Assembly (NCBI GenBank): GCA_043228905.1
Contig: JBHGNT010000007.1
Span: 19,282,001-19,346,000 of the forward strand
DNA: 64,000 nt
Source of the DNA: Azolla caroliniana
Taxonomy: Eukaryota > Plantae > Polypodiophyta
Direction of reading: 5' to 3'
Shown: positions 19,401-54,260 of the stretch, piece by piece
Layout of the letters: every line of letters begins with the position of its first letter
Numbering within the stretch: position 1 is the first letter of the stretch
Notes under the pieces: generated by a model
What the model saw: only the letters and a program-made list of their open reading frames with translations
Databases searched by the model: none
Told to the model about the DNA's origin: nothing
Made by a program: the position numbers and the translations under genes

Positions 19401-20096
19401 CTTAATATGTGACTTGCTTGCTATCCCGTGGTGAGAGAGGTTAGTGGTGAGTAAGTTTTTACCCGACCTTTAGAGATAGGGGTAATTTAGTTATTGGGAC
19501 CCAAATTTGTGTGGCTTGGAGAGGGCTCATGTTGGTTTGCTGGACATAAGACATGGTCTCCATTGGCTAGTCTTATGAATAGGGTTAATCTTATTCTTTT
19601 GGACCCAAATTTGTGTAGTTTGGCAAACTTTTGACCTTTTGATTGTTGGATGGAAAGAAATTGGCTTTGGTGTTTGGCCAATTAGTGTTGGTTGTGAGTT
19701 AGGAGAGGGTGTGATTGGGGAACTATTTCTCGCACTCAACTCAATGTGGGTAACCATAGCTATGTGATGACTTTGTGGCAACCTTATGCTTTTCTTAGTG
19801 TTTTATGGAATCACCACAAGGGTGCTTGATCTTTATTTTTCCTTCGGTGAATATGCCATGGATGATTTGCTATTCTTCTCAGGGATTGGTGCAAGGATTA
19901 TTGAGATTGTTCCTTGTGGATCAACAATTTCATGAGTTTTCTGTTTGGGTATCCACCACAATTTCATGGTTTTACATGCTTTAGATGATGTTTTTTGGAG
20001 GTGTGAAAGGCTCTCTAGTTCTTGAGGGAAAAATATATGCCCATAGGGGAGGTGTTGCCACATATAGTTACATCAAAGCAGAAAGCTGACAATGAA

Positions 20097-20923: not shown

Positions 20924-22423
20924 CTTGAGAAGTTTCTAGAACTTACCAAAGATTTCTAGAATGCGCGCTTCGAAAATTTCTAGAACTTGCGATTTCTAGA
21001 ATGACAAAACTCTGAATGTATCTTGTCTTAACTACATGATGTGCTGAGATACATTGGCTATGTCCTTGGTTTATGACATGGAAGGTTGGAGGTTTGATTA
21101 GATAGTCATTGGCATTATCCTCGCTCTAAGGCCAACCTCCAAAACATTGTCTCAACTTTGGCTTGTGTGGATATCATTGATGAAAATTGAGGACTACCTA
21201 CATCAATGACATTCTTTAAATGCTTTGCCAATTCCAAGGTTGCTCTCGAGATGGGATACCTTTTCCATAGACCACAAGGTATTGAAATTGTCGATGAAGG
21301 AGGCGAGAGTCGAGTATCCTGTCGGCCTCACACTCCTTTCCTGTTGACAATTCGATTGGTGAGGGAGGAGAACGATGGTATCCCTGAATTTGAGATGGAT
21401 GGAGAGGTTCAAGAATGGATACAAGGAAGATATTATGAATCCTAAAATATAAAGTGAGTTCTACGCAAAAAATGGAAAAGGTCCCAATTACTTGTACTCC
21501 AACTTCGCGATGGGGTGAGTGGTGACAATATTTTGATTTAGAAACCAAACCAAATCATTGACTTCAAAGTTGGGGATATTTGATCGATAATGGTCAGCCT
21601 AATCATTGTATTGCTTGCCAACAAGGGTGAGCTCTAAGGCTAGGTCATGTTTTATGTTCTCCAATTTATGGGCTTGTTCTTGTACTAAAGGACTTAAATA
21701 GAGTTGGAGTAGATGGAAATGTTGAAGTGAGTGTATAAGACGTAATTTGCAAAGAATGTGGCAAACTCCGGTGGACCCATGTAGCGAGTTATTGTAGAAC
21801 ACGTTCGCGTTCACAAGTGGAAGGATCGCGCAATAATGGAAGGATAAGGAATATTACATTTGATTTTAGGGTTTTTTTTGCCATTTCACAAAACACCTTG
21901 ATACTAGTATCACATGCTCTCAAAAACTTGATGAAAAAGCTAAAATTTTCACCATTTGGTAAAATTGAAAAATGCCAAAATTTGGCCAAATACGAAAAGT
22001 AACTTTGTGCATTTTTAAGAAGAAACTACAACTAGTAGTATTTTAGATCCTAAAAAAATCATAAGCGAAAGATTTCAAAACAATCAACTTTTTTATTTTA
22101 TTTGATAAAATATTGCCTAAATTTCTTACATATCGTTGCACAAAAAATACATTTAAGAGTTTTTTTTTTTTTTTTCCAAAATGAAGCTACTTTCCCATTA
22201 GTTAGGAAGGATTATTACATAGAGAGTCTACAAGGAGACTTATACACACATCGGGGAGTCTTCCTCCGATCAAGTAAAAGAAGATCAGCCTACTTACAAT
22301 GCCTTGCGGCCTAACTTAATGTAAGAAGCTACCTATATCTAAGGTGATGGCCTTCAATGTTGCCTAGTACGAGTCAGCTCTTGGGGCCTACAACGAAGAG
22401 AGGGTGGAAGGTGAGTAGGAAAC

Positions 22424-23092
22424 TGTTGGGATTACGGTCCCTCCGGATGGGATGGTTAGATGTCCGGGAATCGGGAATGAAGACCCGAATGAGGAGTACC
22501 CGGTATCAGAGCCGGATGATGAAGACCCGGTTACGGAGCCGGATGATGAAGACCCGGTTACGGAGCCGGATGATGAAGACCCGATTTCGGATCCGGATGA
22601 TGAAGACCCCGGCTACGAAGCCGGATGACGAATGTACCCGGAGAGAGATCCGGATGCGGGGACATATTTGTGAATATGTTTGCCAAGGGCCCTCTAGGCT
22701 ATATTTGTAAATAGCCCGAAAGTCATATGTGTATAAATATGACTTAGGGCAAACAGTTGTTGTTGTTGCTCATTTTTCTATTTTCCACTTAGAGTGAGAG
22801 AGAGTGAGAGAGAGAGAGAAAGGAAGAGGTCGACGCCTCTGTGTAATACCGCCGCCTGTGGCGAGGACAGCGAGCTCAAGGTCGTCGCCTTGCAGCTCGC
22901 CATTGTACATTCCCTGCGTATAGTGATAGTTGGAGTCTTGCACTCCCGTGGTTTTTCCCGTCTAGGGTTTTCCACGCTAAACCTTGTGCACTCGAGTCTC
23001 TCTCTGTGTTTTCGATTTACTACTGCATTGATTCGCGTTTCCTCGGTTGTGGCTGGGACGGTGAAGGAATTTGAAAGCGTCAATTTCCAGCA
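22424..23092 (+). repeat. Copia 5' LTR (669 bp)
   Basis: TGTTGGG..TTTCCAGCA, with TATAAATA at ~22732 and 27-bp U3 tandem repeats. Confidence 0.95.
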
Positions 23093-23095
23093 ATC

Positions 23096-23107
23096 TGGTA
23101 TCAGAGC
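23096..23107 (+). other. Primer-binding site complementary to initiator tRNA-Met
   Basis: TGGTATCAGAGC, 3 nt after the LTR end. Confidence 0.95.
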
Positions 23108-23123
23108 GACTGCAGTGCAGAAA

Positions 23124-26100
23124 ATGGAAGGCGGCAGCAGCGGGCAGCCGGGGATGATGGTGCTGAATGCGCAGAACTACGCCGACTGGAAGATAAAGAT
23201 GGAGGATCTGCTCATCGTTTGGGACCTGTATGAACCGATCGACAGGTCGGAAATACCCAAGGGGGTACTTGAGACGGAATGGAGGCTTCTGAACCGGAAA
23301 GCCGTTGCAACCATTCGGCAATACGTCGACGTGAGCGTTCTACAACATGTGGCGAACGACACCAACGCATATGAGATGTGGCAGAAGCTGTCGGGCCTCT
23401 ACGAGAGGAAGAATGCGTTGAACCGGACCTCCCTGATGAGGAAGATAGTGAACCTCAAGTACCGGGACGGCGAGAGTATGGTGGAACACGTAAGCACGTT
23501 CATGGGATTCGTGAACCAGCTTGCGGCGATCAAGTTCCCGTTGGAGGATGCAATGCAAGCCATCATGCTGATGTGTACATTGCCGGAAAGCTGGGAGAAC
23601 TTGGTGGTGACTCTCAGCACCTCCTGCACCGAAGATAACTTGTCCTTACAAACGGTAAAGACAAGCATTTTGAATGAAGAAGCGCGTCAGAGAGATAAAG
23701 AACCGGCCTCCGATCCGAAGATGCTGCTTACCAAATCGGATCGGGGAAGACAACGGAACCGGAGTCCGCAAAGACGGGAGAAGTCGGGGACCCAGTCGCA
23801 GTCAAGAGGAAAGGCCCACATGCTTCCACTGTGGGAAGCCGGGGCACTTCCGAAAGAATTGTCGGCATTACCGAAAAGACAACGGAGCCGACGACACCGA
23901 TACGAAGAAGTCTTCGGAATGGAACGGTGCTTACCGGGGAGCCACGGACCGGAATGGTTCGGATCGGCGAGGGCAGGACCGGAAAGGAATGACGGCACTC
24001 GCGGCAAGTGAAGAGGAGATCATGCTCATCACCGAAGAAGGTGAACTAAACATTGTCGGCGATGAGACTACCTGGGTGGTCGATTCCGGAGCGTCGTTCC
24101 ACCTGACCCCGGAAAGAAGATACTTCTCATCCTACACAGCCGGTGAGCATGGCTGTGTTTGGATGGGAAATGAAGGTACGTGCCGGATTGCCGGCATAGG
24201 AGACGTGTGGTTGACAACCTTGACCGGATGCAAAATGTTGCTGAAGGATGTCCGACACGTTCCGGAGGTTCGATTGAACCTGATTTCGGCCGGGAGGCTA
24301 GACGATGAAGGCTACACAGGTAGCATCCGGAACTGCGTAATGAAGTTCAGCAAGGGGAGCCTGATAATGGCTCGGGCCCGGAAAGTCAACACACTGTACC
24401 TTATGAATGCCTGGTTGTGTCCGGAGGAGTTGAACGTGGCAGCCGACACTGCCGGTGAGCTATGGCACAAGAGACTGTGCCACATGAGTGAGAAGGGGAT
24501 GAAGAGGCTCGCAGAAGACAACCTTATTCCAGTGAAGCATGTGCACCTGGAGAAGTGCACCGATTGCCTGGCCGATAAGCAGAACCGAACCTCCTTCCAC
24601 TCAAGGCCACCGACGAGACGTAGCGCACCATTGGAGTTGCTGCACACTGACGTGTGTCAAGTAGAAACGAAGTCACATGGCGGAGCCCAGTACTTCGTGA
24701 CATTCATTGATGACCATAGCCGGAAGCTGTGGACGGCACCGTTGAAAACAAAGGACCAAGTGTTGTGCGTCTTCAAAGAACTCCACGCGAGAGTGGAAAG
24801 GGAATCCGGCAAGAAGCTGAAAGCGATACGAGCGGATAACGGAGGGGAATACCGGGGGCAGTTCAAGGAGTACTGTCGCTCGAAGGGAATCCGGCTCGAG
24901 TTTACTGTGCCGAAGACGCCGGAACTGAACAGGCTGGCCGAGAGGATGAACCGGACCATAATGGAGAGGGTCCGGAGTATGCTGGCGCATGCGAAATTAC
25001 CCAAGGGGTTTTGGGCTGAGGCAATGTCGACGGCGACATACGTGATAAACAGATCACCCTCAGTACCTTTGGACGGAGACACGCCGCAGAGAGTGTGGAC
25101 CGGTAGGGAAGTATCCTACCGGCATCTGAAGGTGTTCGGGTGTCTCGCATATGTGCATGTGGCAAAGGACCGGAGAGGAAAGCTAGATCCAAAGACCCGG
25201 CCATGCATATTCCTCGGTTACGACGATGACGAGTTCGGCTACCGAGTATGGGACCCGGTCGACAAAAAGATATTCCGGAGTCGTGATATCATCTTCATGG
25301 AGGACAAGACACTCGCCGACTGGGAGTCGGAGAAGAAGATGAAGAGCTCCAAGTCGACCGGTGAGGATCAACTCTACGAGGAGCAGTCCCGACCGGCAAG
25401 GACCGGTTAGCACTCGAGGATCCGGCCGAAGACGGTGAAGAAACAGAACCGGCCGAGGAAGATGAAACTGATACCGGAACCGGCCCCGATCCCGAAATGG
25501 ATTCGGATGAAGAGGAAACGAAGGAGCCGGTTACCGAAGCTCCGGAACGGAGATATCCTCTAAGAGAGAGAAGGGCCCCCCGGAGATTTCCGGAACCAGA
25601 GCACGTGCTGCTAACCGACGAAGGGGAGCCGGAGAGTTTTGAAGAAGCAAAGCTTGACACCCATAGCCGCAGGTGGTTAAGTGCCATGCAGGAGGAGATG
25701 GATTCCCTGCATGAGAACCACACATATGAACTTGTGGAGTTGCCGAAAGGAAAGCGGGCACTTCGAAACAAGTGGGTGTTCAAGCTGAAACCGGGAGATG
25801 CCGGAAACTCCCCGAGATACAAAGCCAGGATCGTGGTGAAGGGGTTCCAGCAGAAGAAGGGCGTCGACTTCGACGAGATATTTGCCCCGGTAGTGAAGAT
25901 GACCTCCATCCGGACGGTGCTGAGCATAGCGGCAAGCATGGACCTCGAGGTAGAACAGATGGACGTGAAGACGGCATTCCTTCACGGTGACCTCGAAGAA
26001 GAGATCTACATGCAGCAACCGGAAGGATTCGAGAAGAAAGGGAAGGAGCACCTGGTATGCCGGTTGAAGAAGAGCCTTTACGGACTGAAGCAGGCTCCCC

Positions 26101-27197
26101 GGCAATGGTACCGGAAGTTCGACTCTTTCATGACCGACGAAGGGTACCACAAAACGCAGTCCGATCACTGCGTGTTTGTGAAGAAGTTCGAAGGAGGAGA
26201 TTTTCTAATACTCCTCCTGTACGTGGACGACATGTTGATCGTCGGACGGGACCAGGTCAAGATACGGATGCTGAAGAAAGCGCTTCACCGAACCTTCTCA
26301 ATGAAGGACCTGGGTCCGGCGAGGCAAATACTAGGGATGCACATCATCCGGGACCGGAAGAAGAAGCAGTTGTGGCTGTCACAGGAGAAGTACGTGACAA
26401 AGGTGCTTCACCGGTTCAACATGTCGGAAGCAAGACCGGTCGGGTCAACCCTCCCGGCAAACTGCAAGTTGTCCAGCAAGCAAAGCCCCAAGACAAAGGC
26501 TGAGAAGGAGGACATGATGAAAGTACCATATGCCTCTGCCGTCGGAAGCTTGATGTACGCAATGGTGTGTACAAGACCGGACATAGGATATGCAGTCGGA
26601 GTGGTGAGCCGGTACATGAGCAATCCCGGCAAAGAGCACTGGAACGCGGCCAAGTGGATACTCCGATACCTGAAGGGCACGGCAAACGTGTGCCTCCGAT
26701 TCGGCTCCGGTAAGCCCGAACTCGACGGCTTTACCGATTCGGATATGTCGGCTGATGCAGATACCAGCCGGTCCACATCAGGGTATGTGATGACGTATGC
26801 AGGGGGAGCTGTTTCGTGGCAGTCGAGGCTGCAGAAGACGGTTGCGTTGTCAACCACGGAGGCGGAGTACATGGCGGCCGTTGAAGCCGGCAAGGAAATA
26901 ATATGGATGAAGGACTTCATTAGAGAGCTCGGTATCCGGCAGGAGGAGTACCGACTCTACTGCGACAGTCAGAGTGTCATCCACCTTGCGAAGAATGCGG
27001 CCTATCACTCCCGGACGAAGCACATCCAGCGAAGATATCACTGGATCCGGGAAAGGATAGGAGACCAGGAGTTCGTGCTGACGAAGATCCACACGGACGA
27101 GAACGGGTCAGATATGCTGACCAAAGTACTCACACCCGACAAGCTGGAAGCGTGCCGGAAGAGGGTCGGACTGGAAAGACATCCCATGCCGAAGTGA
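23124..27197 (+). pseudogene. Copia gag-pol polyprotein with two frameshifts (~23810 and ~25390)
   Basis: Gag; CFHCGKPGHFRKNC knuckle; protease WVVDSGASFH; GAG-pre-integrase HKRLCH..C..C; integrase core; RT YVDD; RNase H TEAEY..KHI. The domains lie in three frames (ORFs 22794-24011, 23674-25410, 25497-27197). Confidence 0.92.
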
Positions 27198-27205
27198 AGG
27201 GGGAG
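27191..27205 (+). other. Copia polypurine tract overlapping the pol stop codon
   Basis: GAAGTGAAGGGGGAG directly before the 3' LTR. Confidence 0.9.
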
Positions 27206-27207
27206 TT

Positions 27208-27903
27208 TGTTGGGATTACGGTCCCTCCGGATGGGATGGTCAGATGTCCGGGAATCGGGAACGAAGACCCGAATGAGGAGTACCCGGTATCAGAGCCGGA
27301 TGATGAAGACCCGGTTACGGAGCCGGATGATGAAGACCCGGTTACGGAGCCAGATGATGAAGACCCGGTTACGGAGCCGGATGATGAAGACCCGGTTTCG
27401 GATCCGGATGATGAAGACCCCGGCTACGGAGCCGGATGACGAATGTACCCGGAGAGAGATCCGGATGCGGGGACATATTTGTGAATATGTTTGCCAAGGG
27501 CCCTCTAGGCTATATTTGTAAATAGCCCGAAAGTCATATGTGTATAAATATGACTTAGGGCAAACAGTTGTTGTTGTTGCTCATTTTTCTGTTTTCCACT
27601 TAGAGTGAGAGAGAGTGAGAGAGAGAGAGAAAGGAAGAGGTCGACGCCTCTGTGTAATACCGCCGCCTGTGGCGAGGACAGCGAGCTCAAGGTCGTCGCC
27701 TTGCAGCTCGCCATTGTACATTCCCTGCGTATAGTGATAGTTGGAGTCTTGCACTCCCGTGGTTTTTCCCGTCTAGGGTTTTCCACGCTAAACCCTGTGC
27801 ACTCGAGTCTCTCTCTGTGTTTTCGATTTACTACTGCATTGATTCGCGTTTCCTCGGTTGTGGCTGGGACGGTGAAGGAATTTGAAAGCGTCAATTTCCA
27901 ACA
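27208..27903 (+). repeat. Copia 3' LTR (696 bp)
   Basis: Matches the 5' LTR except for one extra 27-bp unit and about 7 transitions. Confidence 0.95.
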
Positions 27904-30900
27904 GAAACAACCAGCGTGGGGGCTGGTAATTCCACCTCGGGCCACTCTCGCCTTGCATCACCATAGGTGTTTTCCTCCATTTCTGCCAAAAGCGCAACCG
28001 GGCAGAGATCACGTCGTTGGAGTGGCTGCAAATCTCTTCCAGTTGCCCTCGTAGGCAGCTGATAATCGCGAACCATATGTCCATGATCACTTCCTCCGGG
28101 GGCCGTACCGTACCTTGGAAAACCTTGAGGCAACGCACTTTCCATATGTACCACAAGGTGAAACCTGCAATCAGCATCCAGATTTTTGGAAACCTAGGGG
28201 ATGTGGGCTGCAAGCCTCTTTCGAAACGGATCTTGACGATTTTGCCTCTCGTGCATACATAGCACCAACTATCCGCATTGACGGTGTCTGTCCACCCTTC
28301 GACTGAGTGATCAATCCATGCCGCAACGCTCCACGAGGCTGTTCCTTCAACTTCACATGCCGGAAGGAGGCGAGTCACTCTATCCCAGATCTTTTGAGCT
28401 TGAGGGCAATCCCACAGATAATGTCTCAGAGTCTCAATAGGTCGAGAGCACAGTGGGTAGCCTAACGGGCTGCCGCGTTTACCTAGCCATTCACCAACGG
28501 GCACCACATTATGACCGATCTGCCACCAAAAGAGCTTGATCTTTTCAGGCATGTGGAGGTGCCGGAGACCTTTCCAAAAGGTAATGAGCGCCTCATCAGG
28601 GATGCCCAATGTTTGCCAACCATTGCGAAGGGGGTTGCCCAGTTGCAGATGCAAAGTCCGACCCAATTTAGTGGTGTAATCGAAGAAGTGATGGAGTCTA
28701 TCATCATGTTTCCATCTGAAATCCCCTGGGTCCCAATCCAGATCGACAAGGGGGCGACATCCATATACCCTTAACCTCCAATGGGGTTCCACCTTAGCAA
28801 CATCTGGGTCTGTCTTCCAGATGTTGTCAACCTGTGCCACCACTCGGATTGGGTGCCAAGAGCCCCTGCTTTGATTGTCCCCAAAAACTGTATCTCTCCC
28901 CGATCCGCTCACACCCTTTAGCGACTTGACCATTCCAACCTCGTCAAAGAGACCGAACCATGCAGGTTCCCTCGCCTCCCCCATCGGAACCCTGTCAACT
29001 GCCTCAGCTATCAGTCTCCGCATTTTCGTAGCTCCCTTGAGGGGAGGGAAAAGGTCCTCTTAGGCTCTTCCTGAAATAGCCATGCGTCTCCAATCGTCTA
29101 TAGATAGGAGGCCTGTTTGTGCCAATGTTCCCCATGCTAGGCCCTTAAGTTGCCCTAGCATCGTGTTGTCACTTGTTCGCACGTGAGGATTCCAGAATAG
29201 TGGATGTCTAGTCCATTCGGGCAATGTCTCCGGGGTGTGTTTGACCAAATGTTGTCGTAGATGGCACCATGCCCACAAGATGGAGTTCGCGACCCTGTCC
29301 TCCAGATGGCAAGCTAGCTTGGGTGGGACTCTGCTCGTGTAGCACCAATTCAAGGAGTCGGGCCAAGGCCTACCATACTTGGGAGTCCCTGCTTGCAGCT
29401 TGTTGTGAAGAAGTACCTTCCAGCACCCCTTACCTGGTAGGAGGCAGCGAACCACCATTTTAGCCAGCAATGAACGACTTTGCATTAAGGGGTCTATGAG
29501 GCCAAGCCCCCCTTTGGCCCGCGGTTGCGTTAACCAACACCATGACACTCTGGCAGTAGCCCTTGGGTTGTCCTTACCTGACCATATAAACCCCCTGATG
29601 GCAGCCTTAATCGCGTGCAGACTTGCAGGGTCCATAATCCAGCAGGAGACTGAGTGCCACATGGTAGCGAGCAACACTTGGTTCGCAACAAGGACCCTAC
29701 CAGCGAATGATAGTTTAGATCTACTCCATTGGGTCAACTTCCTGTTTATTTTGGCTTGTACGTGGGCCAATTGCGCTCCCTTGGGGATTGACCTCCCCAT
29801 CGTAAATCCAAGGTACTTGAACGTTGTCCCATTAGGGACCCACATAAAATCGGCATGGGGTTGCCATCTTGGTTTCTCTTGTTCGCTGAACCATAGGCCT
29901 TGGGTTTTATTCCAATTGATCTTGGCACTAGCTGCCTGACAAAAGTTCTCGAAAAGATGTTCAACTCGCTGCAGATTCTCCTCATCACCTTGCAAGAAAA
30001 GAACCGTATCGTCGGCATATTCAGATAACAACAAATCTTCAGTCGCATTGGGGATGGGCATCTCCGCAGCCCGCTGGTTGGTGCTTGTAAGTAGGCGGAG
30101 AAAGCCTCACTTACAAAGAGATATGGGGCTAGGGGACAACCTTGCCTCACTGAGCGTTGTAGTTGGAAGGCGGGTCCCCTAGAACCAGCCAACAACATGC
30201 TACTCGTAGCTGTCCGGTAGAGTGCAGAAGTGCAATTCCTCCATTTTTGAGGTAGGCCCAAAGCTCACATCACATTTTCCAAAAAGGGCCATAACACCCG
30301 GTCGTAGGCCTTCTCGAAGTCTAATATCAGAATAGCCGAGCTCGATACGGAGTGGCCGGCCAATGCCTTAGCTTCCCAAAGAAGCAACACATTATCAAAG
30401 ATACACCTGTTCTTGACAAATCCAGTTTGATTGTCATGTATGATGTCCAATAAGAAGCTTGCTAACCGTCGAGCTAGGACTTTAGCGAGTATCTTGTATG
30501 CCGTATTAAGGATCGTGATTGGACGCCACTGGCGCAACTCTAGGCTTCGCTCTGACGCTTTGGGGATGAGATATATCATCCCCTCAGCCAAACCAATTGG
30601 CATCTTTCCTGAGGACCAAATCTCTTGAACTCCGGCTTCCAAACACGGGATGACACATTCCCAATGAATCTCGAAGAAATCTCGTGAGAGACCATCGGGG
30701 CCGGGGCATGCACCCCTTCGCAATCCCCTAAGCGCCTCTGAGAGTTCTAAACGAGAGATGGGGCTATCGAGCACAACTTCCATCGCCTGGGTTACCTTGG
30801 GGTGAATGCAAGACATCACTCGATCAGCCAGCTCCGTGTGTTGCCTCACCTGCATAGGTGCGAGGAGGTCACGATAGTATTGTGTTGCCATTTCCAGAAT

Positions 30901-32139
30901 CTCAGTCTTGTCCTCCGTTATCGAGCCGTTTGGTTTTCGCAACCCTTGTATACGTCCACCACCACCCTTGGGTGCCTTGTAGTGAAAGAAATGCCGGTTG
31001 ACCTTGTCGTCTTTTCTAGCCCACCATGCTGCATTTCTTCGAAACAACATTCAGTTCTTCTCCAAAGTCCTTTCCTGTACCTTCATCTTTGCTTCCTCCA
31101 GCTTAGCTTTAGACCAAGTGCAACCAGGGTCTACCTGTAGCAGTCGTTGCGTTGCCGCAACGGCCTTCCTTAATTTTGTTTCAATGGCTCTAACCTACTG
31201 GAGGGCGCGCTTGGTCTCCTGTTGTAAGAAGGAGGAGAGGGCCAATTTTTTTTGCAAATCTTCGCTGGATGATTCACTGCCCATGGTGTCCTACCATATA
31301 CTTTGTAAACCGGCCTTCACCTCCACTCTTCATGATCTTTGTGGGGATCTTCACATTGAGACTGCCCTTGCTATCGTTGGGTGGGTTAAGGTCTAGTCTC
31401 TCCAGTTGATGATCTGAAAAGGTAAGACCTGCCAAGATTGCAAAGGCGCCCCCAAGCTCTTCGAGGGATGAGCTGATGTATATGCGATCAAGCCGTGCAA
31501 GACTACCGCCCCTAGCATTCCCGGCGGCTCTGGAAAAGTGCAGTGAATGTGAGCTTCTCCTAAGGGAAGAGCCCCATGTATCCTTCACCCCGATTTTGCC
31601 AATTAGGAAAGCCCATGAATCCAGCTCCGCACCATAAATAAGCCTTTGGGTCCCTCCTTTCCTATCATCCAGGTGTTCAGTCATGTTGAAATCACCTGCC
31701 ATTACCCAAGCCTCGGCATCAGGTAATGTTGTCGCTAACATCCTCCAAAAGATTGCTCTCTCGGGGGCTGAGTTAGGGGCATAAATGTTTAGCACCCCAA
31801 CCTGTAGGTGATTCCATTTCAGAAGCACGTATAAGGCCCGACCCTCCACCAGCGTGCCAGATGATGTTACTTCGTATCGGGCCTTATCGCTGATCGAGAT
31901 GCAGACCCCTCCTCTTCGGTGGAGGTCACCTTGTGCAGCTGACCACCATGTGGTCCACCCACCCGACAAGTTGTTTACTAAGCTCTGAGTTCGCTCTTGC
32001 GAGAGGTGGTGTTCCTGCAAAAGCAATATGTCAATACGGCCCCCTATATTAAGGGGATTCAGCTCCTCCTGAAGTCTTCGGCACTCTTGGTGTTGTCGGC
32101 CTCCACCAAGGCCCTGTACATTCTACGTTAGGATCCTCA

Positions 32140-34507: not shown

Positions 34508-35841
34508 TAAATGGCATTTGCAAGGTTCAATTACCATCAACACAATTCTTAATGGTTTTTTGTTAATCAATGAAGCACATGTTCACCATAAGGTGTCTTG
34601 TTGTGCAACATACTTCTTTGGATTATTGATATGCATCTTTTTCTCTTGTAAAAACAGAGATTTTAGTATAATTCGAGTTCATCTAAACCCTAAACCTCTT
34701 TTATTTGAATAAAAAGATGATTTTTAAACATGAACTCCATACATTATTTCGAGTTGATGTAAAAAACAAAGTTTTGAAATTCATGTTCAAAGTTTATTTC
34801 TCGGATTTAAAAAAATAAAAAAATAAAACAATTGAGCTTGACTTGATGAAAAAACCAGTTTTTTCACCACAATTCAATACAATGTATGTATCGAGTTCGT
34901 GTTTAAAAATAGAGTTTTCAGCGCGAACTCGATATGCCATATCAAGTTTGTGTTGAAAAACTCAATTTTTTGACATGAACTCGATACAATGTATCGAGTT
35001 TGTGTTTAAAATATTTAAACACGAACTCAATACGGCGTATCAAATTCATGTTGAAAAGTCAACTTTTCGACACAAACTCAATACAATGTATCGAGTTCAT
35101 GTTGAAAAACAAAATTTTCAAGACCAACTCGATACATTGTATCGAGTTCGTGTCGAAAAATTGACTTTTTCACATGAATTCGATACAATGTATCGAGTTC
35201 ATGTTTAAAGGTTTTTTTGGAGGGTTTTAAAATAAACAAATTTGGTTTTTTTCTATTTATTTTGGGTCCTATTGGTTATTTAAAAAAAAAAAGGTTGAAA
35301 TGATGAAAAAACCAAAGTTTTCATCACAAGTCGATACAATGTATTGAATTCATGTTTAAAGTTTTTTTTTCCCCAAAAAAAAACAACAAAAAAAAACAAA
35401 TTGAAAAAAATTACTTTAAACATAAACTAGGTACATTGTACTGAATTGTGGTGAAAATTTTGGTTTTTTCATCAAGTCAAGTTCGATTTATTTATTTATT
35501 TATTATTTATTTTTTTTAATTCGGGAAAAAAAACTTTGAACATAAATTTGATACATTGTATGGAATTGTGATGAAAACTTTGTTTTTTACATCAACTCAA
35601 TACAATGTATGGAGTTCATGTTTAGAAATCTTTTTTTTTTTCAAATAAAAGAGGTTTAGGGTTTACATGAACTCGAATTGTACTAAAATATTTGTTTTGA
35701 CAAGAGTAAAAGATGCATATCGATGTTCTAAAGAATTATGTTGCACAACAAGATACCTTACAGTGAACATGTGCTTCCTTGATTAACAAAAAACCATTAA
35801 TAATTGTGTTGATGGTAATTGAACCTTGCAAATGCCATTTA
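34508..35841. mobile_element. Foldback element with long inverted arms and internal palindromic repeats
   Basis: 34508-~34900 is the reverse complement of ~35420-35841 (TAAATGGCATTTGCAAGG / CCTTGCAAATGCCATTTA). The centre holds AACTCGATACAATGTATCGAGTT palindromes at a ~50-bp period. Confidence 0.85.
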
Positions 35842-39727: not shown

Positions 39728-39831
39728 TAAAACATTGCACACTTGCAATGCCAAATAATAATGGTCATGTAGTGTCCTTTATAGACTTATCCATCCATTT
39801 AATTTTAATTTCTTGGATTGTTATAGAGCGC

Positions 39832-40693
39832 TGTCGTAGTGTATTTCGTACACTACGTGAAAAAGTAAAAATAATATAACCGATTTAATTACATATAAAT
39901 AAATAAAATAATATATCAAGATATTTATCACATGCATAGGGCAAGATTCGAACCCTGTACCTCCATATAGTCAAACCTCAACTTTACCATTATACTACCT
40001 TATCTTTAGTGTTCTATAAATAGATTTAATAACTATAAGTGCTTTATTTGCGCCTACCTTTATTAAAAGGTAAATCGTGCATTTTTAGAGTGTGTGAATA
40101 TTTTATAGAAAAAACGCAAGCAACTAAAAAGTGACTCGTGCACATCTAGCGTGCATGAGCACTATATTTAGCAAATAAAAGCAAGGATTAGAAAAGCATC
40201 ACATGCATATTTAGTGTGCATGAACATATTAGAAAAAAAGCATGTAGCTATGCTTAGTCTCTCCCATCACTACATAAGGATGGGGAGCACAATGTAATAG
40301 GGTGTGAAATATTTGGGAAATTGGATATATTTCCTAAAACACCAATTAATAAAATATACTCGTGGGATTCACGAAGTTTAAGATAATCTATCTCTTTCAA
40401 TCTAAATTCATATTCTTACATAAATATTGATTAATGTAATACTTGTGGGATTCACAAGGTTTGATCTCTTTTCTCAATCTACTCTACTCTATTCTAAATT
40501 ATTTCAATTTATTACTACGATTTAGATAAACTAAAACAATTATACTTGTGGGATTCACAAGTTTCTATATCTCTTTCTTATAATCTATTCATATTCATAA
40601 CTAGATTAGCCTCAAATTCTTCCTCCTCCTAGTCCAAAACCTCGGTGGTTCCCACCCGACTCACGCAACGATCCGGAGCCGAAAGGCACGACA
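39832..40693 (+). repeat. 5' LTR (862 bp)
   Basis: Direct repeat of 42712-43573. Confidence 0.97.
39945..39997 (-). promoter_or_regulatory. tRNA-like RNA Pol III internal promoter (A box + B box) inside the LTR, antisense
   Basis: Minus strand TAGTATAATGG (39997-39987) and GTTCGAATC (39953-39945), 33 nt apart, with TTTT downstream at 39908-39905. The copy at 42825-42877 has B box GTTTGAATC. Confidence 0.6.
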
Positions 40694-40697: not shown

Positions 40698-40715
40698 TGG
40701 TGAACCCGACGTGAA
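40698..40715 (+). other. Primer-binding site complementary to tRNA-Trp
   Basis: TGGTGAACCCGACGTGAA is the reverse complement of TTCACGTCGGGTTCACCA, the 3' end of plant cytosolic tRNA-Trp(CCA) as recalled. Confidence 0.85.
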
Positions 40716-40731: not shown

Positions 40732-42426
40732 ATGGAGAATCAACAAGAGGGACTGAGCATAACGATGATGATGATGTTCGAGCGGATGCTACAAGAACAA
40801 CGAGTGATGTCGGAGATCACGGGGGCAGTAAAGCGGCTCGTACAACGAAACGGACAATTCAACGGAAACGATGTGTCACGCTATCTACGTGACTACAAGG
40901 CGGAGATGATACGATGTGGGATACCGGAAGGATTGCAAGTGACATCCTTCAATCGGGTAGCCGCGGATGAGTTACAAGAAAGAATCTACAAGATACGGCA
41001 ACAAAATCCAACATGGGGGTCCTTCGAAGAAGCTTTACGAGAGGCATATGATTACAAGAGATCGAAGGGAAAAGATCGGCGAGAATTCGACGAATGGGTG
41101 GCATCGGAGAAGACCCACCGAAGTGCAACACAAGCATTCCTAGAGTTCGAGCATCGTTTTGCTCGACTCTCGGAGCGAGAACAACGATTGGTGGGAGAGG
41201 ATAAAGTCCTAATGTTCGTAAAATCGATCGATCGAAAAGAAAGGATGGACATCGGGATCGAACTCGAAGACGATGAAGGTACGAATGGTCTTACCGAAGA
41301 TTGGGCCGAAGTCCAAAGGGTATGCCGGAGACATGATGAGAGGAAGATGAGAATCTTGTCAATGACATGGCCGATGAAGGATGGTCGATTGAAGACAAAT
41401 GATGGAGCCGATATGAAGGCCGAAATACAACATGATGGTGCGACGGAAGAGGGTGTAAAACAAGCTACCCTCTTGTCTTGCGAAAGAGCAACGACGAAGG
41501 ATAAGGCCGATAACCCAAGTGTAGAAGAAGATTTCGGAATACAAGTGTCCGAAACATCGGGTGAAAAAGGGGTAAGCATAATTGATGTTTGCATAATTGA
41601 TGCACTGAAAGAGAGCAAAGAGGACTTGATTGAGGAGGTCACCATGAAAGATGACATCGAATTGAAGGTGGCTATGGACGAATCAACGACGGATGGCCAT
41701 ATCGAGACTTCCCCACCACTGATTCTAGAGACTCCGGCGGTTGCGTTCGAAAGGCAACGTGAGACCGAAGAGACGGAAGGTGGCGGAGAGAAAACAAAGG
41801 TCGAAGTCGATGCATACGACGGAGAGATAGCCGAGAATATGGCTATGGGTGAAACAACGGAGGATGATAATACCGAGGATTCCTACCCACTAATTCTAGA
41901 GACTTCGGCGGTTGTGTCCGAGAACCAACGTGAGACCGGAGAGACGGGAGGTGGCAGCAAGAAAGGTAAAGTCGGAAGCCGGTTCGGATGGAAGGTGATC
42001 CGGACGGGATTCCGATCCGAAAGAAAGCCGAACCGGGTAAAAGAGGATTCGACTGAAAGACGATACAAACGAAAGCCGAACCGGGCAAATGAGGATTCAG
42101 CCGAAAGACGACCCAAAAGAAAGCCGACCCGAAAAGGGGTCGACTCGGTCAAAACCGATCGACTGAGTCTGACTTGGCCGAACGCGAATATGGATGGAAG
42201 CCGACCTAGCCAAAAGCCGATCGGACGAGACCGATCCAGAAAGAAGCTAATCCGACTCAACCGAAGGTTGGACCGGTCGAGGCTGGTGAAAACGAGGAAA
42301 AGAAAGCCAACCGAAACCGAAATCGATAGATCGAAACCGGGCCGGAAGGAGACCGACTCAATCGAAACCGAACAACCGATTCCGATTCGGCCGAATACGA
42401 ATCCGATCGGAAGCCGATCAAACTGA
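40732..42426 (+). CDS. Gag-derived protein (564 aa): capsid-like N-terminus, acidic middle, basic repetitive tail
   Basis: Uninterrupted ORF starting 17 nt after the PBS. The N-terminus (FNGNDVSRYLRDYKAEM..TWGSFEEALREAY) is homologous to the gag remnant at ~53420-53950. In frame with ORF 42466-42759 beyond a single TGA. Confidence 0.8.
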   Translation: MENQQEGLSITMMMMFERMLQEQRVMSEITGAVKRLVQRNGQFNGNDVSRYLRDYKAEMIRCGIPEGLQVTSFNRVAADELQERIYKIRQQNPTWGSFEEALREAYDYKRSKGKDRREFDEWVASEKTHRSATQAFLEFEHRFARLSEREQRLVGEDKVLMFVKSIDRKERMDIGIELEDDEGTNGLTEDWAEVQRVCRRHDERKMRILSMTWPMKDGRLKTNDGADMKAEIQHDGATEEGVKQATLLSCERATTKDKADNPSVEEDFGIQVSETSGEKGVSIIDVCIIDALKESKEDLIEEVTMKDDIELKVAMDESTTDGHIETSPPLILETPAVAFERQRETEETEGGGEKTKVEVDAYDGEIAENMAMGETTEDDNTEDSYPLILETSAVVSENQRETGETGGGSKKGKVGSRFGWKVIRTGFRSERKPNRVKEDSTERRYKRKPNRANEDSAERRPKRKPTRKGVDSVKTDRLSLTWPNANMDGSRPSQKPIGRDRSRKKLIRLNRRLDRSRLVKTRKRKPTETEIDRSKPGRKETDSIETEQPIPIRPNTNPIGSRSN

Positions 42427-42700: not shown

Positions 42701-42711
42701 GAGGGGGCGAG
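42701..42711 (+). other. Polypurine tract
   Basis: GAGGGGGCGAG directly before the 3' LTR. Confidence 0.85.
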
Positions 42712-43573
42712 TGTCGTAGTGTATTTCGTACACTACGTGAAAAAGTAAAAATAATATAACCGATTTAATTACATATAAATAAATAAAATAATATATCAAG
42801 ATATTTATCACGTGCATAGGGCAGGATTCAAACCCTGTACCTCCACATAGTCAAACCTCAACTTTACCATTATACTACCTTATCTTTAGTGTTCTATAAA
42901 TAGATTTAATAACTATAAGTGCTTTATTTGCGCCTACCTTTATTAAAAGGTAAATCGTGCATTTTTAGAGTGTGTGAATATTTTATAGAAAAAACGCAAG
43001 CAACTAAAAAGTGACTCGTGCACATCTAGCGTGCATGAGCACTATATTTAGCAAATAAAAGCAAGGATTAGAAAAGCATCACATGCATATTTAGTGTGCA
43101 TGAACATATTAGAAAAAAAGCATGTAGCTATGCTTAGTCTCTCCCATCACTACATAAGGATGGGGAGCACAATGTAATAGGGTGTGAAATATTTGGGAAA
43201 TTGGATATATTTCCTAAAACACCAATTAATAAAATATACTCGTGGGATTCACGAAGTTTAAGATAATCTATCTCTTTCAATCTAAATTCATATTCTTACA
43301 TAAATATTGATTAATGTAATACTTGTGGGATTCACAAGGTTTGATCTCTTTTCTCAATCTACTCTAATCTATTCTAAATTATTTCAATTTATTACTACGA
43401 TTTAGATAAACTAAAACAATTATACTTGTGGGATTCACAAGTTTCTATATCTCTTTCTTATAATCTATTCATATTCATAACTAGATTAGCCTCAAATTCT
43501 TCCTCCTCCTAGTCCAAAACCTCGGTGGTTCCCACCCGACTCACGCAACGATCCGGAGCCGAAAGGCACGACA
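42712..43573 (+). repeat. 3' LTR (862 bp)
   Basis: Direct repeat of 39832-40693. Confidence 0.97.
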
Positions 43574-45374
43574 GCGCAAATGTCTTATTGCAAATAATAA
43601 TAGTAAAATGCTTCTTTTAGCATGCACCTCACCTTTTCTATTTTTCATGCATCCATACTTATCCCCCAAGGTGTCGAGAATGAGCAAAATGTTGATAATC
43701 ATGTCCATCCATTCATGTTGCTTCCATAAGATTCGACCTCTTGTCTCTTCATTTCGAGATTAAGTTCTTTTCTTCCAATGAGCACACTTCCACAAGATCT
43801 ATCCTCTCATCTGTCAAAGTTCTCCTACCTAGTTTGCATTTGGATCTTTTTTTTGAAGCTTTCGTGGGCATCCTAACATTTAGCACCATTTCCTAGTGAG
43901 GTGTAATTGTATATGGGTTGCACATTTCTTCTCATAGCATCCTCCATGAGTTTCATTTCACCTAGCCAAATTTGGTACTAAGCAATTGTCTTGTTTTTTA
44001 TGCATCAATTTGATTCAATGAAGCGGATGACTTCCCATCGAAGATCTTCTTGGAAGTCAACATTGCGGCTCTTCTTTGGTGTTGTAGGGTATCACAATAT
44101 ATACATCACCAATTGAACCCTTTCCACTAATTTGGCAAGAGTAAGCCTAATTTTCTAACCACCCGGACGATTTGAAGGTCTTATATCATTCTCACCAAAT
44201 CATTGATGGTTTCCCGTTTGACTAGTGCGTCTACTCTCTTCTTCTTAGTGCCAACCCTAGAACTAGTTTGGGTTGTGCACCGGATTTACAAAGTATCATG
44301 AAGCTTTCTTTATCGTGTTTTTCTCACTCACAAATGCCATATCATGACTGCATTTTGTGACATCTTTTAATATGAGGGAAGTTGATAGTAATGAATCTAA
44401 ATTGAAAGAAACCTCACAATGAGGCCTACAAAGTGAATCCTAACTACAATGCTCACCAATGATTAGGCTTAGAGACAACACATTTCGATGATGAGAATTT
44501 AGTTATCAATGAAGCATGCTTTCCAATGAAGGCTACCGACAAAAGCACACTTGACCTAGCACACTTTTCCGAATCTTGACGAACCTTCTATCCTGGTCTA
44601 CGATCCTCATGGTCCCACTCTCTCTTTCATACATTGTAGACCTCAGTGACATTGTATTGATTTCATACCTGAGGCAACCATATGCCACACATTTTGACAT
44701 GGATAGAGTGAGGGCTATGATCTATGTCGTACTTATTGAAGTAAGACGAAAGCTTTCATTTTCACCAATAATGCCACGAGAACTTTAAAAAGCGGTAGTT
44801 TGGTTGGAAGGTTCAACAAAATGTACTCATGAGTATTAAGATCGTAGATAAATAGGCCAAAAATACTTCATAGGATACTATGCTCAAAGTTTCCATTTCT
44901 TACTACTTGATACTACTAGCTATAATGATGTATTCACACTATTGTGTGCTGATCAAATCCATTCCCCTAGTGTTGACTATGAGGGTTTAGGAATCAATTA
45001 AATCTTATACAAGTAAATATGAGTTGTATAGAATGTGTGTAATTCCAAACAAAACATGAAGCGTGGTTGCCAAATGCATTTTTCGCCATTTTTTCCTAAA
45101 CGAATTCCATCGGAGGCATAGGATTTTCAGATTTTTCGGTCTTCGTCTTAAAACTCGGGGAAGAATGTCGCGCAAAGCTCTTGTTAAAAACTAGCATACT
45201 CATTGACTTGTTAAAAATATAAGAAAAAATGTGGTACTACTTCATAAAACAAATATGAAGAACTAAAATTGAACCAATGAAAAGGAGTTACATTGCAATG
45301 TGAGTGTTCGTGAGGGATATTCGATGCTTTATTGGAAGAGATTGCGCAAGCCAAAAGCCAAAATCAAATTAAGT

Positions 45375-46157
45375 CTAATATGGGGGAGGAGAGTAAGGTG
45401 GCTTGATGGAGGGCGGTTTAGGGTAAGAAGGAGAGGAAGGTGGCTTTTGGTAAGGAGGTTTAGGGTAAGAAGGTGGTTTAGGGTGGGAAGGAGAAGTAGG
45501 TGGTTTTTGATAAGAAGGTGGTTTGTAGGAAGGTGATTTGGGGGCATGGGGCTTGTGGTGGTGGGGAGAGTATGGGGTATTGTGAGTTGGGGGAGTGTAA
45601 TATGGTGGTGGTTTTGTAACAGGGGACGGCTCGTGGTGGTAAGCCGGAGGCGGTTTTGTGTAAACATGAGGAGGCTTGGTATAAGCCGGAGGTGGTTCGG
45701 TGTAAACGCGAGGAGGCTTCGTGTACGAAGCCGGAGGTGGTTTCGTGAGGACACGAGGCGGCTTGGTGTAAGTGGGGGGAGGATTCCAATAATCAGGAGG
45801 AGGTTCGTCGTAAGTTGGAGGAGGTTCGGTATAAATTGGGGGAGGTTCGGTATACACCGGAGGAGGTTTGGTATAAACCGGAGGAGGTTCAGTATAAACG
45901 GGGGGAGGTTCGGTATAAACCGGGGGAGGTTTGGTGTAAACCGGGGGTAAGTAGGTGTTAACCGGAGGAGGTTCGGTATAAACGGGGGGAGGTTCGGTAT
46001 AAACCGGGGGAGGTTTGGTGTAAACCGGAGGTAAGTAGGTGTTAACCGGAGGTGGTGGCGATGTATAGGTGTATGGCGGGTTTGCATTGGTCATTGTGGT
46101 AAACATGACCGCCAGAAGCACGGGAAGAAACACCGAAAAAGCCACCCATTTCGCCAT
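45375..46157 (-). CDS. Secreted proline-rich / extensin-like cell-wall protein (260 aa)
   Basis: Signal peptide MAKWVAFSVFLPVLLAVMFTTMTNA. PPPVYT(E/K) heptads, one SPPPP, and C-terminal KPPSY repeats ending YSPPPY. TATA box upstream and AATAAA at 45333-45328. Confidence 0.88.
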   Translation of the reverse strand: MAKWVAFSVFLPVLLAVMFTTMTNANPPYTYTSPPPPVNTYLPPVYTKPPPVYTEPPPVYTEPPPVNTYLPPVYTKPPPVYTEPPPVYTEPPPVYTKPPPVYTEPPPIYTEPPPTYDEPPPDYWNPPPTYTKPPRVLTKPPPASYTKPPRVYTEPPPAYTKPPHVYTKPPPAYHHEPSPVTKPPPYYTPPTHNTPYSPHHHKPHAPKSPSYKPPSYQKPPTSPSHPKPPSYPKPPYQKPPSSPSYPKPPSIKPPYSPPPY

Positions 46158-46239
46158 CTTTTGATCTCCACTCTCTCCCACCTCAACTTATCACAAAACC
46201 ATATGTTTGGTATCCTAATCATGGGTCCTTAGGCCCTCC

Positions 46240-52004: not shown

Positions 52005-54260
52005 TGTCGTAGCGTACTTCGTACACATAGTGAAAAATGTATGGAGTACCCTAATTAATAGGTATGGAGAAATAGAAGAAAGTGTTAAAAAAAGAGCATA
52101 TGTTACATGCATAGTGTCATGAATACATAAACATCATGGTTTCACCTAGGCTGGAACCCAAGACCTTGTAATACATAATCAAGAACCTAACCATTAAGAT
52201 AGCCTATGATCATATGAGACAATAAAAGCTACTTTTTGTAATATACTGATTATGGTAAATACTTTGGAACATTATAGAACATCTTAGAATATTCTAGGTG
52301 TAGAACATTATAGAACATTATAGAAATCTCTAGGCTATTCTATAGGAACCTATAAATATAAACATACAATTCTTCTCAAACCAATTTGAATCAAACTTTC
52401 AAAACCAAGAATAAAAGATAGAGTGATGGAAGAAGGATATAAGAGAACACAAGACGAATGGAATGAAATGATAAGAGAAGAATGGGTGCATTACGATAGA
52501 AAGAGAATGGATATAAGATAAGCAATGAGAGCTTCAGACTGGTGTTGATTCGAATTGGTTTGAGAAGAATTGTATGTATATATATATATATATATATATA
52601 GGTTCCTATAGAATAGACTAGAGATTTCTATAATGTAGATACACATAGAATATTCTAAGATGTTCTAGGATATTCTAGAATGTTCTAGAATGTTCCAAAG
52701 TATTCACCATAATCAATATATTACAAAAAGTAGGTTTTGTTGTTGTATATGACCATAGGCTATCTTAATGGTTAGGTTTTTTTATTATGTATTATAAGGT
52801 CTTGGGTTCAAGCCTAGGTGAAGCCATGATGTTTATGTATTCATGGCACATAGGGCAAGATTCAATCCCAAGCCTTACCAATCTACTAACTCATTATGGG
52901 CAATATAATTATAGATTTAGTATTTACAAGAACTTATCCTCACATATAAATTCTAGGAAACTTATGCATGACTAGTGTGCATGAATACTATAGTTAGAGA
53001 AAGCATGAATTTGCTATGTGGCAAGTTATACTTAGCCTCTCCCATCACTATATAAGGGGAAGGGCAAAATGTAATGGGTTTTTCCCCCCCTCAAAGTGTT
53101 GATTAATCTAATGTACTATAATCTTGAAATTCACAAGTTTTCCTATCTCTCTCTTTTAGTCTATTCATAATTTTTATTTGTCTTAAATTCCTCCTCCTCC
53201 TAGTCCAAAACCTCAGCTGTTCCAACCGACTCACGTAACAATTCAATGTTGTATGGCATGACACATTTGGTGAACTCGACGTTAAGATGGGTGGCAAGGA
53301 GATGGAGGATCAACAAGAGGTGATCAACATGATGATAATGTTCGAGCGAATGTTGTGGGAACAACACATGATGTCGGAGATCACAATGGCAATAGAGTAG
53401 CTCGTGCAATGAAATGAGCAATTCAACGGAAAGGACGTGTCATGCTATCTACAGAACTACAAGGCAGAGATGTTGCGATGCGGGATCTCGGAAGGATTGC
53501 AAGTGATATCCTTCAATCCAATGGCTACGAATTGGCTTCAAGGGAGCATCCATGGAATACGACAACGAAATCCGTCGTGGGTGGCCTTTGAAGAAGAGCT
53601 AAAGACTACGTACGTTATCAAGGACTACTCCAAGGTAACGTGGAGGGGATTCAAGGATTGGGTGGAAACACCGGACATGGTGGCCTTTGAAGAAGAGCTA
53701 AAGACTACGTACGTTATCAAGGACTACTCCAAAGTAACGTGGAGGGGATTCAAGGATTGGGTGGAAACACCGGACAATTTTTCTCAGGAGGTTGTTGGTG
53801 AGAGTTCAAGCTATCCTCGCACCAGACAAAGTGATCATGTTCTTACCAACCGTGGATGCTCAAGACCGAAATGATCTTGGGACATTGTTGGAAGATGTAA
53901 CTACGGTTAGTGGGCTCACAAACAATTGGGAGAATGTGAGGACTAGCGTCGCCTGGTTCACAAAGAGGAGATAGTGGCTTGGTAATGAAGAGAAGAGAGT
54001 TTCAGAACTAATTTCGAGACCAAGATCCGGATCAAGGGACCACCAATTATGGATCCGGGGTCAAAGGGAATTGACATATCCGTGGTTGAGCAAATTCTAA
54101 AAGGGTTGGAGGACCTGAAAATAGATATGGTGAAGAAAACGGAGTATTGGCCTGCAAGTTCCAAGTATATGAACCATCGGTGTATATGGTGTGATAGCAC
54201 CAAACATGAATGCAAGGATTGTGATGAACAAAAGGATGCATTACTATGTCGACAGATCAA
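52005..54260 (+). mobile_element. Older truncated relative of the 39832-43573 family (5' LTR 52005-53263, Trp-type PBS, gag remnant with zinc knuckle)
   Basis: The LTR starts TGTCGTAGCGTACTTCGTACAC and ends GGCATGACA. PBS TGGTGAACTCGACGT at 53268. Gag YLQNYKAEMLRCGISEGLQVISFN and knuckle CIWCDSTKHECKDC. A 99-bp tandem duplication lies at ~53579-53776. Confidence 0.85.
52115..52848. mobile_element. 734-bp foldback element with TG..CA ends and a 5-bp TSD
   Basis: Arms 52115-~52394 and ~52546-52848 are reverse complements. TSD CATAG (52110-52114 / 52849-52853). The empty site 'catgcatagggcaagattc' is seen at 39931. Confidence 0.88.

What the first reader, a model, noticed from the sequence alone, without database searches (positions are those of the whole stretch)
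39905..40005. Antisense tRNA-like Pol III cassette built into the LTRs
Seen: the minus strand has A box TAGTATAATGG, a 33-nt spacer, B box GTTCGAATC and then TTTT, predicting a ~100-nt RNA antisense to the LTR. It does not fold as a full cloverleaf. The diverged relative keeps eroded boxes at the same LTR position (~52856-52888), so this looks like a family trait rather than a one-off SINE insertion. Four of the five inter-LTR differences (39932, 39944, 39950, 39966) cluster here. Known: Cassandra TRIMs carry 5S-derived Pol III boxes in their LTRs, and TFIIIC-bound B boxes can act as insulators. Inference: a tRNA-derived analogue of Cassandra, serving as a Pol III promoter, antisense regulator or anti-silencing barrier.
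Basis: partly seen in the sequence, partly recalled or inferred. Interest (0 to 1): 0.8.

Follow-up and report, generated by a model that had tools for sequence, protein, structure and literature searches.

The report
Backward tRNA promoter in fern LTRs
A large family of jumping genes in what is likely a fern or fern relative carries, backwards in its end repeats, a decayed tRNA gene that still has its two promoter boxes; it points away from the element, so it cannot make the element's own RNA, and it likely survives as a docking site for the tRNA transcription machinery, though no RNA or binding data test this.

Summary
A tRNA-type A box (39997-39987, minus strand), a 33-nt spacer and a B box lie in both 862-bp LTRs of a young gag-only element. 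The element has a 4-bp NCGN target duplication and a tRNA-Trp-type PBS, as Phygy Ty3/gypsy elements do; the host looks fern-lineage. The segment has tRNA geometry (22 of 24 landmarks) but is not a tRNA. It is a family trait: 8 of 9 further LTRs covering the site carry it whole or in part, and its B-box side occurs in contigs under five organism labels. Spacing and the A-box 3' half persist while the anticodon arm differs between subfamilies. However, box conservation is not significant with 9 copies, B-box C56 is lost in 4 of 8 copies and in this element's 3' LTR, and no RNA holder was listed. It is not a Cassandra/Helenus analogue in mechanism: those cassettes are sense, in short TRIMs. This one is antisense, in outer U3, and ends inside the LTR. 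Best guess: a TFIIIC docking site under weak selection (0.45) versus an inert relic (0.35). Similar heads sit in both arms of a nearby foldback element. New variant of a known kind; interest 0.4.

The parts
39828..39831 (+). Left target-site duplication GCGC (4 bp, NCGN)
   Evidence: NCGN is the Phygy signature
39832..40693 (+). 5' LTR, 862 bp, TG...CA
39934..40004 (-). tRNA-derived cassette (tRNA positions 1-72), 5' LTR copy; the only copy seen with all 10 core box positions
   Evidence: (ARAGORN at lowered threshold, where it is 1 of 39 calls in the window)
39987..39997 (-). A box
39945..39954 (-). B box GGTTCGAATC; its CpG includes C56 (39950)
39905..39908 (-). First T4 run, candidate Pol III terminator, inside an AT-rich tract
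   Evidence: in 5 of 6 other copies listed the first T4 is 23 nt after the B box
40271..40277 (+). Likely Pol II TATA position (TACATAA here; TATATAA in the window relative, L008, L010)
   Evidence: read; function inferred
40698..40714 (+). Primer-binding site, tRNA-Trp type (complementarity recalled, not checked against a host tRNA)
   Evidence: Phygy PBS is tRNA-Trp in 81% of 186 elements
40732..42426 (+). Single 564-aa ORF: gag-like N-terminus (53% over 204 aa to P0004, which goes on to DUF4100 and a weak aspartyl-protease match) plus a low-complexity tail; no Pfam hit, no pol
42701..42711 (+). Polypurine tract
42712..43573 (+). 3' LTR, 5 substitutions from the 5' LTR
42814..42884 (-). Cassette copy in the 3' LTR; B-box C56 lost
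43574..43577 (+). Right target-site duplication GCGC
52005..53263 (+). 5' LTR of an older relative, interrupted by a foldback insert
52849..52897 (-). Relative's cassette, 23-nt deletion through spacer and start of B box
   Evidence: E = 1.6e-5 over 93 kb
52114..52849 (.). Foldback (MITE-like) insert, 3-bp duplication ATA, inserted in the 3' end of the relative's cassette; each arm carries an outward-facing tRNA-like A/B head (52152-52209 minus; 52755-52811 plus)

Best explanation
The segment is a decayed tRNA-derived A-box/B-box cassette that sits backwards in the outer U3 region of a high-copy, likely Phygy-type LTR retrotransposon family, and it likely persists under weak selection as a docking site for TFIIIC/TFIIIB rather than as the promoter of the element's RNA. 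Shown: tRNA geometry, antisense position about 100-170 nt from the LTR's outer end, presence across subfamilies and organism labels, constant spacing. Inferred: (1) an ancestor captured it once from a tRNA pseudogene or tRNA-SINE head, and LTR copying spread it; (2) Pol II from the TATA region about 270 nt further in makes the genomic RNA; (3) in young copies TFIIIC binds the boxes and places TFIIIB on the side facing the Pol II promoter, keeping U3 open or shielding it from flanking silent chromatin; any Pol III product would be a roughly 90-110-nt by-product ending in the T run; (4) after insertion, deamination of the methylated B-box CpG (C56) switches most copies off.
For: 22 of 24 tRNA landmarks at fixed geometry; only 4 of about 128,000 window positions reach 18 or more, and the next best is 17 (landmark list recalled and partly chosen after viewing the sequence). 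Present whole or in part in 8 of 9 further LTRs that cover the site, from loci picked by a U5 motif and not by the cassette. One of them (L008) follows an RT-like stretch (E = 5e-4). A-to-B distance exact in 7 of 8 copies with both boxes. In contigs, 9 of 10 distinct listed loose ends that run from the B side through a different anticodon arm rejoin the A-box 3' half at the same spacing (the tables show only part of all loose ends). At 12% share or more, the only B-box variant is 39950, against 7 of 17 anticodon-arm positions. Changes shared by two or more copies: cassette 0.23 vs right flank 0.38, p = 0.04. In runs X17 and X20 the B-side block 39929-39963 has about 10- to 100-fold more contig depth than the bins from 39971 on; in X17 and X19 it is on a par with the LTR start and TATA region. 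C56 losses are scattered over a star-like tree with long tips, as expected for decay after insertion.
Against: Core positions vs anticodon arm p = 0.23; vs the rest of the LTR p = 0.52; cassette vs all non-cassette columns p = 0.34. A-box identity is 0.71 against an LTR mean of 0.74 without gaps. Only 1 of 9 aligned copies keeps all 10 core box positions. C56 is kept in 4 of 8 copies, and the B-box CpG is kept in 3 of 8 vs 111 of 155 cells at other LTR CpGs (p = 0.054). The C56 loss makes up 27-32% of depth in three runs while its CpG partner stays under 12%, which hints that B-box-dead lineages amplified (depth is not copy number). The best-conserved part is 3' of the B box (1 of 13 columns with a shared change), outside the Pol III promoter. 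The two 33-nt segments next to the A box keep their length in 6 of 9 copies each, so length constancy is not unique to the spacer. The barrier role of TFIIIB/C is described for yeast and animals in the passages read, not shown there for plants.
Confidence: 0.45

Rival explanations
1. Inert relic: a tRNA-SINE head or tRNA pseudogene was fixed in the master LTR and is carried along without a Pol III function; it looks conserved because it is less AT-rich and less indel-prone than its flanks.
For: No significant excess conservation of the boxes; C56 lost often; related heads occur outside this LTR family, in both arms of a foldback element and in an L002 flank (E = 0.004 and 0.012), so a donor pool is plausible; L007's 5' LTR lacks the cassette and its 3' LTR lacks the B box.
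Against: Subfamilies with different anticodon arms keep the spacing and the A-box 3' half; the cassette is kept among LTRs 17-27% diverged from the window copy while other U3 parts turn over; L007's two LTRs differ strongly, so its deletions may postdate insertion or be an assembly chimera.
Confidence: 0.35
2. Antisense regulator: Pol III makes a roughly 100-nt RNA complementary to U3 at the 3' end of the genomic RNA, which would tune copy number or feed small-RNA silencing.
For: Complete A-spacer-B-T4 layout in the 5' LTR; four clustered transitions, three at CG/CHG cytosines, fit a local methylation target.
Against: No compensatory base pair in the family; no strand bias of transitions across the cassette, 12 vs 13; the spacer sequence varies freely.
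Confidence: 0.1
3. The conserved thing is not the Pol III promoter but the B-side block: a minus-strand hairpin (39935-39967) or a Pol II factor site (CATGCA at 39931-39936, an RY-type motif by recall, which recurs 4 times in the LTR).
For: 13-pair consensus hairpin with 115 of 117 cells paired; the block 3' of the B box is the least variable; the cross-species depth peak covers this block; motif positions.
Against: 0 compensatory changes and 345 of 500 shuffles reach the paired percentage; per-copy minus-strand z-scores run from +0.5 to -3 with differing registers; CATGCA is common in this window (82 matches).
Confidence: 0.07
4. Cassandra/Helenus-like: the cassette drives the element's genomic RNA by Pol III.
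For: A small-RNA-derived promoter is in both LTRs, as in TRIMp3 elements.
Against: It is antisense to PBS, ORF and PPT, meets a T4 run 23-36 nt after the B box, and the element is 3.7 kb with a 564-aa ORF.
Confidence: 0.03

Closest known systems
Helenus (TRIMp3 with tRNA-like LTR sequence; Kojima 2024, PMC10886601; parts 1-4 of 6 of the text, find passages and 6 supplement passages read)
   Same: tRNA-derived sequence with A and B boxes in both LTRs, not a working tRNA, proposed origin by SINE insertion into an LTR. [quoted passage not shown]
   Different: Helenus elements are non-coding TRIMs of 311-1263 bp. In the roughly dozen LTR consensus sequences visible the cassette is sense and in the 3' part of the LTR. 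The only plant family is in Selaginella. Here the cassette is antisense, in outer U3 of an 862-bp LTR, in a 3.7-kb gag-coding element.
Cassandra (5S-derived Pol III promoter in LTRs; PMC10886601 Introduction; PMC7215508 passages)
   Same: Pol III promoter boxes inside LTRs; occurs in ferns.
   Different: 5S boxes A and C, sense, starts the element's transcript; TRIM. Here tRNA-type boxes, antisense, unable to make the genomic RNA.
Phygy non-chromovirus Ty3/gypsy lineage (Neumann et al. 2019, PMC6317226; passages and one supplement table row read)
   Same: 4-bp NCGN target duplication and tRNA-Trp PBS; 8 of 11 flanks after LTR ends are NCGN and 2 more are NTGN.
   Different: Phygy was defined in Physcomitrella by RT/RH/INT trees, at 7.7-10 kb. 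This element has no pol and sits in a fern-lineage genome; no tRNA-like LTR cassette is mentioned in the passages seen.
tDNA/TFIIIC barriers and B2 SINE boundaries (PMC9540200 and PMC7544208 passages; PMC8136502 search listing only)
   Same: A/B boxes placed between host chromatin and a promoter would suit this role.
   Different: Described for yeast and animals in the passages read; no binding or barrier datum here.

Membership tests
Helenus/TRIMp3 | tRNA-like sequence with boxes A and B in both LTRs | tested here: met
   (3' LTR copy lacks C56)
Helenus/TRIMp3 | Short non-coding TRIM (under about 1.3 kb) | tested here: not met
   3742 bp with a 564-aa ORF
Helenus/TRIMp3 | Cassette in sense, able to drive the element's RNA | tested here: not met
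   minus strand relative to PBS, ORF and PPT; Helenus examples sense
Helenus/TRIMp3 | Conservation concentrated on the boxes | tested here: inconclusive
   trend only, p = 0.23; loose ends favour it
Cassandra | 5S rRNA-derived boxes A and C | tested here: not met
   no Rfam 5S hit on the LTR; boxes are tRNA type
Functional tRNA gene | Cloverleaf and stable anticodon | tested here: not met
   anticodon position reads GAC, GTC, ATT, GTT or CTT across copies
Active type-2 Pol III promoter | TFIIIC binding and transcript | not testable with these tools
   no raw RNA reads were offered
tRNA-derived SINE insertion | Own target duplication, body and tail; free-standing copies | tested here: inconclusive
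   no duplication or body recognised around the cassette by eye; related heads outside LTRs exist; whole genome not held
Phygy (Ty3/gypsy) | 4-bp NCGN target duplication | tested here: met
   GCGC on both sides; 8 of 11 flanks NCGN; reference
Phygy (Ty3/gypsy) | tRNA-Trp PBS | tested here: inconclusive
   PBS at 40698-40714 seen; the match to tRNA-Trp is recalled, no host tRNA was compared
Phygy (Ty3/gypsy) | RT/RH/INT group with Phygy | not tested
   element has no pol; only a broken RT-like piece in L008

The most novel reading that the evidence does not exclude
A high-copy, protein-coding Phygy-like LTR family in a fern lineage keeps a working, outward-facing tRNA-type Pol III promoter at the outer end of U3 as a portable chromatin barrier. 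An unrelated foldback element in the same genome carries the same kind of outward-facing heads in both arms. This would point to repeated recruitment of TFIIIC at transposon ends as an anti-silencing device in plants.
Probability: 0.25. Interest if true: 0.7.

Novelty: new variant of a known kind. Interest (0 to 1): 0.4.

Why it matters
tRNA-derived boxes in LTRs are known (Helenus), but as sense promoters of tiny elements. An antisense, family-wide cassette in the U3 of a large coding family cannot serve that purpose, so if it is selected it must do something else. A TFIIIC barrier carried by a transposon would give a testable plant example of tDNA-type insulation, which the reviews read describe for yeast and animals. 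Many near-identical copies with and without B-box C56 offer a built-in comparison. If it is a relic, it is an annotation note: a source of tRNA-like noise in fern-lineage genomes.

Tried and rejected
RNA: no RNA holder listed. None of this bears on expression. Whole genome not held. Pattern scans of viral contigs and genome contigs found 0 matches. Rfam and ARAGORN at default find no tRNA at the cassette; at threshold 80 ARAGORN calls it among 39 window hits, which is not evidence. Conserved RNA structure: rejected as unsupported, with no compensatory pair and the shuffle control not exceeded. Transcription-linked strand bias: not seen. Isotype assignment failed. Pfam found nothing on the ORF or on the two L008 pieces. 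The majority G at 39994 in X2 and X7 was not listed for X1, so depth-weighted shares are noisy. Paper searches (listings and abstract starts only) showed no description of an antisense tRNA cassette in plant Ty3/gypsy LTRs or of tRNA heads in MITE arms; the library lacks most subscription journals and Repbase. Earlier notes on PPT-less elements in this genome concern another family: this element has a PPT.

Full report
Observation. The minus strand reads A box at 39997-39987, 33 nt, B box core at 39953-39945, and a first T4 at 39908-39905. The A+B pattern occurs once in the window against 0.07 expected. It is not a tRNA gene: ARAGORN 0, no Rfam tRNA hit, folding z = +0.40. Its geometry is that of a class-I tRNA: 22 of 24 recalled landmark positions match at fixed spacing. 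Only 4 of about 128,000 window positions reach 18: the two LTR copies and two arms of a foldback element. The landmark list was partly chosen after I had seen the sequence. The A-box/D-arm also resembles the Rfam tRNA consensus printed.

The element. LTRs 39832-40693 and 42712-43573 differ at 5 of 862 positions, so the copy is young. It has a 4-bp duplication GCGC, a PBS at 40698-40714, a PPT at 42701-42711 and one 564-aa ORF. The ORF has no Pfam hit, but its first 204 residues are 53% identical to P0004, which continues into DUF4100 and a weak protease match. It is therefore a gag-only, non-autonomous element. NCGN duplications and tRNA-Trp priming define Phygy in Neumann et al. 2019. Here 8 of 11 flanks after LTR ends are NCGN and 2 more are NTGN; the tRNA-Trp match is recalled. 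A GT47 gene in the window is 67-68% identical to Ceratopteris and Adiantum proteins and at most 53% to the listed lycophyte and seed-plant proteins, so the host is probably a fern or fern ally.

Family trait. A scan with a U5 motif, independent of the cassette, gave 12 loci. Nine LTRs cover the cassette site: 7 hold it whole, L007's 3' LTR holds it without the B box, and L007's 5' LTR lacks it. L004 is 5'-truncated; L005 and L006 end before the site, and L009 begins at its edge. L008 has an RT-like stretch just before its PPT, so pol-derived relatives share the LTR. Contigs from runs under five organism labels (A-E) cover the B side. The window's older relative keeps a copy with a 23-nt deletion.

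Is it selected? I aligned 9 LTRs: the window's 5' LTR plus 8 from the loci. I left out the window's 3' LTR (not independent), the relative (interrupted), L007's 5' LTR and L004, L005, L006, L009. For selection: cassette identity 0.73 vs 0.55 for the whole LTR with gaps counted. The A-to-B distance is exact in 7 of 8 copies with both boxes (L003 has 5 nt more). Shared changes are 0.23 vs 0.38 in the right flank, p = 0.04. In contig data the only B-box variant at 12% or more is 39950, against 7 of 17 anticodon-arm positions. Nine of 10 distinct listed loose ends that carry a different anticodon arm rejoin the A-box 3' half at the same spacing (partial tables). In X17 and X20 the depth peaks on 39929-39963. 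Against selection: A-box identity is at the 37th percentile without gaps. Core positions vs anticodon arm p = 0.23, vs the rest of the LTR p = 0.52. Only 1 of 9 copies in alignment A2 keeps all 10 core positions. C56 is kept in 4 of 8; its losses are scattered over a star-like tree with tips of 0.07-0.20, which fits decay after insertion. But C56 loss is 27-32% of depth in three runs while its CpG partner is under 12%, which hints at amplified dead lineages. The least variable part lies 3' of the B box. The verdict is a trend, not a proof.

The cluster of four LTR differences is real (P = 0.001-0.002). All four are transitions, three at CG/CHG cytosines, and all four sites are also listed family variants. 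Local deamination of methylated cytosines or a short conversion tract from a sibling copy both fit; I could not separate them. The cluster is not evidence of function, and one of the changes disables the 3' LTR's B box.

Structure. A 13-pair minus-strand hairpin is predicted over 39935-39967, but it has no compensatory change and does not beat the shuffle control. The plus strand folds less well. Transitions across the cassette show no strand bias.

How it most likely works. The cassette faces the LTR's outer end and meets a T4 run 23-36 nt after the B box, so it cannot make the genomic RNA. That RNA would come from Pol II at the TATA-like site near 40271-40277 (inferred). A and B boxes recruit TFIIIC and then TFIIIB (PMC7544208 passages), and these factors form barriers in yeast (PMC9540200 passages). 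The divergent placement between host flank and Pol II promoter suits such a role. I put 0.45 on a weakly selected docking site, 0.35 on an inert relic, 0.10 on an antisense RNA, 0.07 on a non-Pol III role of the B-side block and 0.03 on a Cassandra-like promoter. No raw RNA or binding data were available.

Comparison. Kojima 2024 (PMC10886601) already names tRNA-bearing LTR elements (Helenus) and notes that many Repbase LTRs hold tRNA-like parts. Helenus elements are short non-coding TRIMs, and the cassettes I saw were sense. This element fails those two membership features. Cassandra uses 5S boxes in sense. My searches showed no description of an antisense cassette in plant Ty3/gypsy LTRs. 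I did not see the rest of the Helenus supplement or Repbase, where such LTRs may be listed. Earlier scan notes report antisense tRNA relics inside Gypsy elements of protists and fungi (unchecked), which suggests such captures recur.

An extra feature: the foldback insert at 52114-52849 landed in the 3' end of the relative's cassette and has outward-facing tRNA-like heads in both arms (21 and 19 of 24 landmarks). A further head lies in an L002 flank outside any LTR (E = 0.012). This either marks a common donor pool (relic reading) or repeated recruitment of TFIIIC at element ends (novel reading).

Verdict: observation confirmed; interpretation partly supported; new variant of a known kind; interest 0.4.

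Noticed in passing
window 52114-52849: Foldback element with 3-bp duplication ATA whose two arms each carry an outward-facing tRNA-like A/B head; it inserted into the 3' end of the relative LTR's own cassette.
   Followed up: partly
L002 1383-1439: tRNA-like head outside any LTR, just beyond the LTR's 3' end; possible donor-family copy (E = 0.012).
   Followed up: partly
L007 3859-3942: tRNA-Leu(CAA) gene or pseudogene (Rfam 50.4 bits) a few hundred bases from the 5' LTR of a family element whose two LTRs differ strongly.
   Followed up: no
window 40732-42426: Intact gag-like ORF with a long acidic then basic low-complexity tail in place of protease and pol; 79% identical over the first 230 residues to P0001, so the gag-only form is itself a family.
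   Followed up: partly
window 40271-40277 and 43151-43157: The likely TATA box reads TACATAA in both LTRs of this young copy, TATATAA in relatives.
   Followed up: no
window 22481-27591: Young Ty1/copia-type element (long gag and pol frames at 22743-27197) with a 27-nt tandem repeat in its direct repeats.
   Followed up: no
window 27788-32122 (minus): LINE-like frames (endonuclease, RT) in several pieces (read from the translations).
   Followed up: no
window 34508-35841: Second large foldback element with 268-nt arms and internal 51-nt repeats.
   Followed up: no
window 8422-10104: Intron-free GT47 (exostosin family) glycosyltransferase gene, used here only to place the host.
   Followed up: partly
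window 45375-46187 (minus): Proline-rich, extensin-like frame with 21-nt repeats.
   Followed up: no
window 20092-21051: Tandem array with a 165-nt period, first copies 99% identical.
   Followed up: no
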